Part shown: positions 24,842 to 64,000 of the stretch, piece after piece
How positions within the stretch are numbered: position 1 is the first letter of the stretch
Layout of the letters: each line of letters opens with the position of its first letter
Source of the DNA: Podarcis muralis
Taxonomy: Eukaryota
Reading direction: 5' to 3'
Length of the DNA: 64,000 nucleotides
Assembly: GCF_964188315.1 (NCBI RefSeq)
Contig: NC_135659.1
Location: 46,190,001-46,254,000 of the forward strand
Made by a program: the position numbers and the translations under genes
Notes under the pieces: model-generated
The model's database searches: none
What the model saw: only the letters and a program-made list of their open reading frames with translations
What the model was told of the DNA's origin: nothing

Positions 24842-62374
<37,533 letters not shown>

Positions 62375-62796
62375 TGCCTCAAAATCTCTAAGAAAGTTGT
62401 TGTTGCAGGATAGGGGGCAGGAACAGTACATCTTTTAAAAGAGATGTTTCAGTGCTGGTGGAGCTGGATATGTTCGTCTGATGTTTTGCAAAGTCTCTTT
62501 ATATATTTTATACAAAAACAGTGCAAGTGCAGATTGTGTTCCAGTGAAAAGTTATGCTACGGTTTAAGTAGTTTATATAGTCTGTCACATATTTCTGTGT
62601 GGTTCTCAATGTTACAGTCAAACACACTTTATTAGCATCTGATAGCTAGAGGCCACTGTTAACTATGGCACAAAAATTTAATTAAAAAAGAAAGGACAGC
62701 AGTTTGAACTATCTCACAAAAAGATCTTCAGAAGGGAGAGGCAATATTGTTCTTTGTGTAATTAACTGGTATCTTTGCTTAATAAGAATTGCACAG

Positions 62797-62840
62797 GAAA
62801 AGCTGTAGCTCAGTGGTAGAGCATGCAGAAGGTCTTAGAC
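62797..62840 (+). mobile_element. tRNA-derived SINE head fragment
   Basis: A-box-like TAGCTCAGTGGTAGAGC without a complete tRNA cloverleaf. Confidence 0.5.
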
Positions 62841-62857
62841 TCAGTCATTTAAACCTG

Positions 62858-63065
62858 GTAGGTAGCCGTGGTGGTCTGCCTTAGTCGAAACAAAATAAAA
62901 AAATTCCTTCCAGTAACACCTTAGAGACCAACTAAGTTAGTTATTAGTATGAGCTTTCTTGTGCATGCATCTGAAGAAGTGTGCATGCACACGAAAGCTC
63001 ATACCAATAGCTAACTTAGTTGGTCTCTAAGGTGCTACTGGAAGGATTATTTTTTATTTTTTTTT
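62858..63065 (+). mobile_element. Penelope-like element terminal fragment arranged as an inverted repeat
   Basis: GTAGGTAGCCGTG..GGTCTG...CACCTTAGAGACCAAC...GAAAGCTCATAC...GGTCTCTAAGGTGCTAC matches the reptile Penelope end pattern; 62-bp arms at 62908-62969 / 62982-63043. Confidence 0.8.
62966..63005 (+). ncRNA. Candidate minimal type-I hammerhead ribozyme core
   Basis: CTGAAGA (62971-77), A, palindromic stem II GTGTGCATGCACAC (62979-92), GAA-AGCT-C (62993-63000); short stem I (GC)AT/AT(AC). Confidence 0.55.
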
Positions 63066-63464
63066 CATTTGAACCAGTCATTTTCATTGAGGCAAAAACC
63101 ACCAAGCTCAGTCACTCCATACCACAGCAGCCACACCATTCACATGAGCATGTGTCAAAAGGAAAGGGTGGTACTTTAGAGGGGCATATTGCCAGAAACA
63201 CTGGGAACAAGTCCTTAGGGGCATTTTTCCTATAAAGCAGCATTTGAAAAGCCTTGGTATCTGCGTGGAATTCTGGACATGGTTTCAATTAGACTGCAAG
63301 TATGACAGTGATAGACATCCAAGGCCATTCAATGAGTTTACGGCTTAATTGCTCTACAGATAAATATTCAGACTGTTTAACTTTTTTTGCACTTGTGGAA
63401 GTACATTAGTTCCCAAGAAAATAAAAGATGTATGTAACTGGGAAAAGTTTGAAATAAAGAATTC

Positions 63465-63516
63465 TGTGGCACTTTAAGGACTAACAAATTTTGTATAGCA
63501 ATTAGCTTTTGTGAAC
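63465..63516 (-). mobile_element. Older Penelope terminal fragment
   Basis: TGTGGCACTTTAAGGACTAAC...TAGCTTTTGTG is a degenerate version of the arm at 62915-62962. Confidence 0.5.
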
Positions 63517-64000
63517 TAAATTTCACTTAATCAGAATATATCATTTAGGACCATTCCTATACTATTTAATATTTTAAAACTCATAAATGGCATGTATTAC
63601 ATGTGCACATAAAAACTACTGAAAATGACAAAGGTTACTAAAATTGACACACTCTTAACTTTTCCTGCCAATATCCTCTACCTTCACTGAGGTCAGCTAA
63701 GCTCAGGAAGCAATTATTTGTAATTGCAGGATCAGGCATTTGAAAGTTGCCCTTGACAATCTTGCAGCTACCTTAAGACTGCAGTCCCACATAACTCAAT
63801 GGAACATACTTCTGAGTGGACATATAAGATTGCACTGTTAATGTTCACACACAAACTCCACTTTGTCATAGTAGGAATATGAACTGTGATAGTAAGTCAA
63901 AATATGTTTAGTACAGAGTTTGAATTTGTATTAATTATAATGAGAAAGTTCTATTTTCTTGCACATTCGTGATTTGGTGTTTAGCAGGCACTTTCTGTGT

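What the first reader, a model, noticed from the sequence alone, without database searches (positions are those of the whole stretch)
62858..63065. Minimal hammerhead-ribozyme core in sense orientation ~600 nt after the RAB3B stop, caged inside a long hairpin
Seen: on the RAB3B-sense strand the sequence reads CUGAAGA-A-[GUGUGCAUGCACAC]-GAA-AGCU-C/AUAC. This supplies all conserved hammerhead core nucleotides, a perfectly palindromic stem II, a 4-nt self-complementary AGCU in place of stem III, and a predicted cleavage site after C63000. The motif sits in the 12-nt loop and right arm of a 62-bp inverted repeat (4 mismatches, extendable to ~80 bp through A/T tracts). Established: Penelope-like retroelements carry minimal type-I hammerheads that cleave as dimers, and mammalian RAB3B has a very long 3' UTR. 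Inference: if the lizard 3' UTR runs through here, the mRNA has two mutually exclusive folds. One is a long dsRNA hairpin (ADAR/Staufen substrate) that masks the ribozyme; the other is a ribozyme fold able to cut off the distal UTR. That would be a TE-derived conformational switch on a vesicle-trafficking mRNA. Stem I is weak (one C-A mismatch), so activity is uncertain.
Basis: partly seen in the sequence, partly recalled or inferred. Interest (0 to 1): 0.7.

Follow-up and report, generated by a model that had tools for sequence, protein, structure and literature searches.

The report
Penelope hairpin stub in RAB3B UTR
This is a short back-to-back insertion of a very common Penelope-type jumping gene in what is likely the untranslated tail of the RAB3B message; its self-cutting RNA motif is clipped and predicted to stay locked in a long hairpin, so it is likely an ordinary insertion scar and not an RNA switch.

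Summary
The sequence observation holds: hammerhead core at 62971-63000 inside a 62-bp inverted repeat. RNA-type contigs and a few stranded reads cover both flanks and stop at an AATAAA at 64043, so the RAB3B 3' UTR likely runs through it. The switch reading is not supported. The 34-nt motif occurs 6,710 times in this genome. It is the end repeat of a Penelope-like element with a 925-aa RT + GIY-YIG frame. The locus is a 209-bp head-to-head stub with a tail on one arm and an 11-bp target duplication, a published insertion shape. 41 of 100 sampled motifs are caged the same way, and the same junction, which causes the stem-I mismatch, recurs at 21 sites. The ribozyme fold is predicted 32-36 kcal/mol above the hairpin, and 24 above even with every left-arm A unpaired. 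No pile of RNA ends was seen at 63000; editing could not be judged. The scan found this arrangement before on other DNA (8 earlier notes listed).

The parts
62184..62374 (+). Last coding exon of a Rab3 gene, best match RAB3B; stop at 62372-62374
   Evidence: upstream exons at about 24.9-25.1 kb and 59.2-59.35 kb on +; RNA-type contig begins at the acceptor
62375..64000 (+). Likely 3' UTR, continuing to an AATAAA 43 nt beyond the window end (64043 in window numbering)
   Evidence: contig pieces 62183-62742, 62727-62889, 63073-64022 (X17) and 63073-64047 (X15); no depth in any of 4 runs beyond about 64093; no listed piece spans the hairpin
62845..62855 (+). Target-site duplication, left copy (11 bp)
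   Evidence: 1 mismatch to 63065-63075
62856..62969 (-). Left arm: Penelope end-repeat fragment antisense to RAB3B, starting inside stem II and carrying the roughly 32-bp tail (62856-62887)
   Evidence: Alignment to the full-length element in L115; 5 private substitutions in 113 positions
62970..63064 (+). Right arm: inverted, tail-less end-repeat fragment, sense to RAB3B, starting about 2 nt before the hammerhead core
   Evidence: 1 private substitution in 79 scored positions
62967..63004 (+). Minimal hammerhead motif; core intact, stem I 5' strand GCAT instead of the family's GTAT; predicted cut between 63000 and 63001
   Evidence: GTAT in 88 of 100 hits, GCAT in 1; same junction at 21 sites
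62908..63043 (+). 62-bp RNA helix with 12-nt loop (62970-62981) that buries stem II, GAAA and the cut site
63065..63075 (+). Target-site duplication, right copy (11 bp)

Best explanation
This is a 209-bp head-to-head stub of a high-copy Penelope-like retrotransposon, flanked by an 11-bp target duplication, lying in the likely 3' UTR of RAB3B, where it is predicted to fold as one long hairpin that keeps the hammerhead from forming. Shown: the two arms are copies of the element's end repeat; one carries the tail and the other does not; the parent has an RT + GIY-YIG frame between two hammerhead-bearing repeats; the same shape and even the same junction occur at many unrelated sites. Inferred: the element's protein nicked the target, copied the short front end of its uncut RNA twice (once from the tail end, once from the tail start), and the two copies were joined back to back; the join clipped the 5' strand of stem I. 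Predicted: the RAB3B message carries a constitutive double helix of 62-82 bp and is not cut at 63000; the copy is likely neutral and decaying.
For: 6,710 exact motif copies, control 0. 40 of 40 scored candidates (of 2,184) match most of the cassette on both strands, the 39 other sites at 87-93%. Full-length pLTR-ORF-pLTR units, hammerheads 3,010 bp apart, in 3 of 4 fetched regions; RVT_1 and GIY-YIG above Pfam cut-off. Of the first 100 listed hits on contig C1: 58 have an inverted arm within 700 nt, 41 are caged within 60 nt, 53 of the 58 have the tail on exactly one arm and 0 on both. Identical junction at 21 sites with different flanks, most with their own duplication. Fold gap 32-36 kcal/mol, against 1.2 for an isolated parent motif. 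4 of 4 private stem substitutions uncompensated. No place with many molecule ends in 4 of 4 runs (table 6; only 2 are raw reads). Same architecture in print: PMC8557442 Fig. 2 legend, PMC3846280 (passages read). Monomeric minimal hammerheads did not cut in vitro (PMC4209133, parts 1-2 of 4 read); the anole element's hammerhead needed its protein and no RNA-seq reads ended at the site (PMC11167929, parts 1-2 of 4 read).
Against: The core is unchanged at all 34 positions while the left arm has 5 private changes; at about 3% divergence (6 of 192) this is expected by chance about one time in three (my arithmetic), so it is weak. Locus-specific read depth was only 2-4 and reads on the hairpin were about 90% from other copies, so absence of cut ends at this locus is barely tested. 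13 reads of X24 have loose ends at 63001, about 4% of local depth; the loose letters look like a library adapter (recalled) and are unexplained. No other species and no empty site could be examined. Folding energies are model values without proteins.
Confidence: 0.9

Rival explanations
1. The ribozyme is dead, but the hairpin itself acts on the RAB3B message as double-stranded RNA (A-to-I editing, dsRNA-binding proteins, altered translation or stability), as inverted Alu pairs do in human 3' UTRs.
For: The helix is long and stable, likely transcribed, and has two A/C mismatches (62916, 62946), a context ADAR is known to favour (recalled). Effects of 3' UTR inverted repeats are in print (PMC3458544, PMC11263572; search listing and abstract starts only).
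Against: The A>G calls at 62916 and 62946 are the family's own letter (G in 19 of 19 aligned same-junction copies) and appear in both read directions, so they are cross-mapped reads, not edits. No compensatory changes. This is compatible with the best explanation as a side effect, not as a selected function.
Confidence: 0.2
2. One reading: the message switches between the hairpin and a hammerhead fold that cuts off the distal UTR.
For: All core nucleotides present; UTR likely runs through; cut-site strand (AGCUC, AUAC) is intact and could in principle pair with an intact family RNA in a mixed dimer; family RNA is abundant in the runs laid (493 and 243 reads).
Against: Fold gap 32-36 kcal/mol; opening only the 9-nt target costs 20.8 kcal/mol, 11 with left-arm A residues unpaired, against -2.5 for the AGCU duplex. 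The cage is made first during transcription. Stem I is clipped. No second sense motif in the 64-kb window at up to 3 mismatches. The same arrangement is common across the genome.
Confidence: 0.04
3. The 209-bp palindrome is a non-autonomous unit (MITE- or SINE-like) that moves as a whole.
For: Many look-alikes of similar length; one exact junction at 21 sites.
Against: Junctions differ from copy to copy among the 30 best look-alikes and the first 30 motif hits, either arm may hold the complete core, and arm lengths run from under 100 bp to kilobases; this fits fresh joining at each insertion. The 21 identical junctions join arms of different subfamilies.
Confidence: 0.05

Closest known systems
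Insertion unit of endonuclease-bearing Penelope-like elements: inverted 5'-truncated copy, 30-40-bp tail at one end, short target duplication (PMC8557442 Fig. 2 legend; PMC3846280)
   Same: Head-to-head arms, tail on one arm only, 11-bp duplication, tail overlapping the first codons of the ORF, TATA- and initiator-like motifs upstream in the parent repeat.
   Different: This copy has no ORF sequence beyond the tail and no promoter part; it is among the shortest forms.
Minimal hammerheads of metazoan Penelope-like elements (Cervera and De la Pena 2014, PMC4209133)
   Same: Core boxes, one extra base between positions 9 and 10.1, G10.1-C11.1 pair, palindromic 15.2-16.2, no helix III; the paper also reports pairs on opposite strands 100-700 bp apart.
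   Different: Helix I has a C/A mismatch from the junction; helix II is 5 bp with a 4-nt palindromic loop; the motif is buried in a 62-bp helix.
Neptune clade of Penelope-like elements
   Same: [quoted passage not shown]
   Different: No RT tree was built, so Neptune against Nematis is inferred from host range only.
PAc (Poseidon) element of the green anole (PMC11167929)
   Same: Lizard Penelope-like element with a hammerhead in the end repeat; two reverse-transcription starts that bound the tail would explain tailed and tail-less arms; uncut RNA is the template.
   Different: PAc is of another clade and its ORF starts in stem II; here the first in-frame ATG lies about 90 nt after the core, at the start of the tail.
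Inverted Alu pairs in human 3' UTRs
   Same: Transposon-derived double helix in an mRNA tail.
   Different: Made in one insertion event, 62-82 bp, 12-nt loop; editing or any effect here is not shown.

Membership tests
EN+ Penelope-like element insertion | Parent has one ORF with RT and C-terminal GIY-YIG between direct pseudo-LTRs | tested here: met
   925-aa open frame between two hammerhead repeats in L115, L116, L117; RVT_1 46.5 bits, GIY-YIG 24.6 bits
EN+ Penelope-like element insertion | Inverted 5'-truncated copy joined head to head | tested here: met
   58 of 100 family hits likewise
EN+ Penelope-like element insertion | 30-40-bp tail at one end only | tested here: met
   Tail on the left arm only; exactly one tailed arm in 53 of 58, both in 0
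EN+ Penelope-like element insertion | Short target-site duplication | tested here: met
   11 bp, 1 mismatch; empty site not seen
Neptune clade | [quoted passage not shown] | tested here: met
   Cysteine cluster read by eye in the parent frame; criterion from PMC8557442 passage
Neptune clade | RT groups with Neptune references in a tree | not tested
   No reference RT sequences were fetched
Minimal type-I PLE hammerhead | Conserved core, extra base after position 9, G10.1-C11.1, palindromic 15.2-16.2 | tested here: met
   against the features listed in PMC4209133
Minimal type-I PLE hammerhead | Helix I of 4-5 bp | tested here: not met
   GCAT against ATAC leaves a C/A mismatch; family GTAT in 88 of 100
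Minimal type-I PLE hammerhead | Second copy on the same RNA for the active dimer | tested here: not met
   One match in the window at up to 3 mismatches; nearest downstream copy (65757-65946) is antisense and beyond the RNA end
Minimal type-I PLE hammerhead | Self-cleavage | not testable with these tools
   No pile of ends in 2 raw-read runs, but locus depth 2-4
Two-state RNA switch | Two folds of similar energy or a kinetic window for the weaker one | tested here: not met
   Gap 31.7-35.9 kcal/mol in whole and nascent RNA, 23.7-25.0 with left-arm A unpaired
Edited 3' UTR inverted repeat | A-to-I edits in the arms | tested here: inconclusive
   A>G calls equal the family letter; reads cross-map; no matched DNA laid

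The most novel reading that the evidence does not exclude
When the Penelope element is expressed, its protein opens the hairpin and its RNA pairs with the intact cut-site strand of the RAB3B copy as a mixed hammerhead dimer, cutting off about 1 kb of distal UTR with the poly(A) tail. Thousands of caged stubs would make host messages conditional targets of a transposon ribozyme acting in trans.
Probability: 0.03. Interest if true: 0.75.

Novelty: new member of a known kind. Interest (0 to 1): 0.12.

Why it matters
As found, little: one of thousands of stubs of a known insertion shape. Its only distinction is that it likely sits in a mature mRNA tail, which makes it a usable test case for whether such hairpins are edited or change expression. 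The family as a whole is the more useful object: it has many intact 925-aa frames, and short copies start 4-8 nt before the hammerhead and span the cut site, which bears on how these elements copy themselves. If cutting in trans were real it would be a new way for a transposon to act on host messages.

Tried and rejected
Rfam: no hammerhead family matched; the mir-559 and other microRNA matches are below their gathering scores and reflect a generic hairpin, so a microRNA precursor was rejected. Editing: A>G at 62916 and 62946 rejected as cross-mapped family alleles. Run search: no listed holder is on record as RNA; X15-X20 are guessed RNA, so I relied on their exon and poly(A)-signal boundaries. 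The single-cell run X22 had no reads on the flanks. The dimer paper by Lunse et al. (PMC5785218) was not held; I saw only a review's summary (PMC6765202, passages). Paper searches for Penelope + inverted + lizard + hammerhead gave 1 paper and for Neptune + squamate + inverted repeat + hairpin 1 preprint (passages seen); neither listing concerns RAB3B. Supplements of these papers were not read and may hold reptile motif alignments. A dimer energy routine begun was left unfinished; only the AGCU duplex was computed.

Full report
Observation. The motif and the hairpin are as described. The core runs 62971-63000, the 62-bp helix pairs 62908-62969 with 62982-63043 and has three mismatches and one U-G pair. 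The upstream exon translates to a Rab3 C-terminus whose best PDB match is Rab-3B, with the stop at 62372-62374. Rfam has no hammerhead match here.

Copy number. The exact 34 bases 62971-63004 occur 6,710 times in the 1.52-Gb genome, 0 for the reversed control. A search with the whole cassette gave 2,184 candidates; all 40 that were scored match most of it, each on both strands (these are the best candidates, not a random sample).

Parent element. Longer copies lead upstream into an RT + GIY-YIG frame. A protein search found many open frames, several of 918-925 aa. Three of four fetched regions hold a complete unit: hammerhead repeat, 925-aa frame, hammerhead repeat, the two hammerheads 3,010 bp apart, plus an inverted copy that lacks the tail (the fourth is a truncated copy inside another element). 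Both Pfam domains pass their cut-offs. The tail encodes the first residues of the ORF, and a cysteine cluster lies between RT and endonuclease, which PMC8557442 (passages) gives for the Neptune and Nematis clades; Neptune is my inference, no tree was built.

Anatomy of this copy. Aligned to the parent, the left arm (62969 down to 62856, minus strand) begins inside stem II and carries the tail; the right arm (62970-63064, plus strand) begins about 2 bases before the core and stops before the tail; an 11-bp duplication with one mismatch flanks the pair. PMC8557442 (Fig. 2 legend) and PMC3846280 (passages) describe this shape: inverted 5'-truncated copy, tail at one end, short duplication. PMC11167929 (parts 1-2 of 4) shows two reverse-transcription starts that bound the tail in an anole element, which would give one tailed and one tail-less arm; applying that here is inference.

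The cage is routine. I examined all of the first 100 listed hits (contig C1 only; both members of a pair are counted, and two hits are a duplicated locus). 88 have the perfect stem-I strand GTAT; 58 have an inverted arm within 700 nt; 41 are caged as here; 53 of the 58 have the tail on exactly one arm. Scaled to 6,710 hits this is of the order of two thousand or more, a rough extrapolation. The exact junction of this copy, which creates the C/A mismatch, occurs at 21 sites with different flanks, so the weak stem I is a joining scar. Against about 190 family arms this copy has 6 private substitutions in 192 scored positions; the 4 in the helix are all uncompensated.

Folding. With ViennaRNA constraints the hammerhead-shaped state lies 35.9 kcal/mol above the ensemble of the whole cassette and 31.7-35.9 above in nascent RNAs ending at 63004-63020, since the caging arm is made first. 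Making left-arm A residues unpairable, a worst case for editing, leaves 23.7-25.0; opening only the cut-site strand costs 20.8, or about 11 in that case. These are model energies, with no protein and no tertiary contacts.

Expression. Twenty of 24 listed runs hold the stretch, six of them guessed RNA. I laid 4 runs on 62150-64300. X17 contigs start at the exon acceptor, pass ATTAAA 62681, enter the insertion by 34 bases, and resume from 63073 to 64022; an X15 contig ends at 64047, at the AATAAA at 64043; no run has depth beyond about 64093. The raw run X24 has depth 2-4 on both flanks, all in the direction expected for plus-strand RNA in a stranded library. No listed piece spans the hairpin, so continuity is inferred. 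Reads on the hairpin are about 90% from other copies: their differences equal the family letters, including A>G at 62916 and 62946. No place had many molecule ends. Against my reading: 13 X24 reads have loose ends at 63001 with letters that look like a library adapter (recalled); this is about 4% of depth, mostly from other copies, and unexplained. X22 had no flank reads.

Literature on activity. A single minimal hammerhead did not cut in vitro and dimers cut weakly (PMC4209133, parts 1-2 of 4). The anole element's hammerhead cut only with its protein, was not needed for insertion, and no RNA-seq reads began or ended at the site (PMC11167929). There is no second sense copy in the window. In a mixed dimer the RAB3B cut-site strand could pair with an intact family RNA, which sidesteps the stem-I mismatch but not the hairpin; this is the novel case, rated 0.03.

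Earlier notes of this scan. A look-up by sequence and one by place found nothing. A look-up by words listed 8 notes on other genomes that reach the same reading; they are unchecked AI notes and came after my own reading was recorded.

Verdict. A real feature, a new instance of a known Penelope insertion shape, likely inside the RAB3B 3' UTR as a constitutive hairpin; the switch is not supported. Interest 0.12.

Noticed in passing
L033-L062, L120-L178 (first 100 motif hits on C1); parent L115:4890-4935: In 64 of 100 hits the match to the parent stops within 10 nt upstream of the core, mostly at 4-6 nt. In the parent an initiator-like TCAGT lies there, 30 nt after a TATA-like box. Short copies may be complete copies of the RNA's front end, all spanning the cut site, so made from uncut RNA. 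Not shown by reads: 324 X24 reads run on upstream of this point.
   Followed up: partly
G000:C10:37734500-37741500 (L115), C4:52892000-52901500 (L116), C8:36039500-36049000 (L117): Near-identical full-length Penelope units with open 925-aa frames; the family looks recently active.
   Followed up: partly
L114:5757-5946 and L114:7559-7603 (65757-65946 and 67559-67603 in window numbering): Two more fragments of the same family just downstream of the RAB3B RNA end: a young 190-bp antisense piece (99.5% to L036) and a 45-bp tail piece.
   Followed up: partly
window 63001 (run X24): 13 reads with loose, adapter-like ends at the position next to the predicted cut site; likely short library fragments from other copies, unexplained.
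   Followed up: no
L033, L036, L056, L118: Several Penelope copies sit inside or beside the same kind of LINE-like reverse-transcriptase sequence; in L118 the two frames are fused in one 945-aa open frame.
   Followed up: no
G000:C18:58230, C14:47900, C15:49061 and 76585, C20:29576595 (L009, L011-L014): One hairpin insertion with the same flanks recurs near several contig ends, suggesting it lies in a duplicated subtelomeric segment.
   Followed up: no
window 61801-61930 and L114:4396-4500: Two similar copies of another small repeat flank the last RAB3B exon and UTR (seen); not identified.
   Followed up: no
window 62796-62850: A short tRNA-like or SINE-like stretch directly before the target duplication (seen); not tested.
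   Followed up: no
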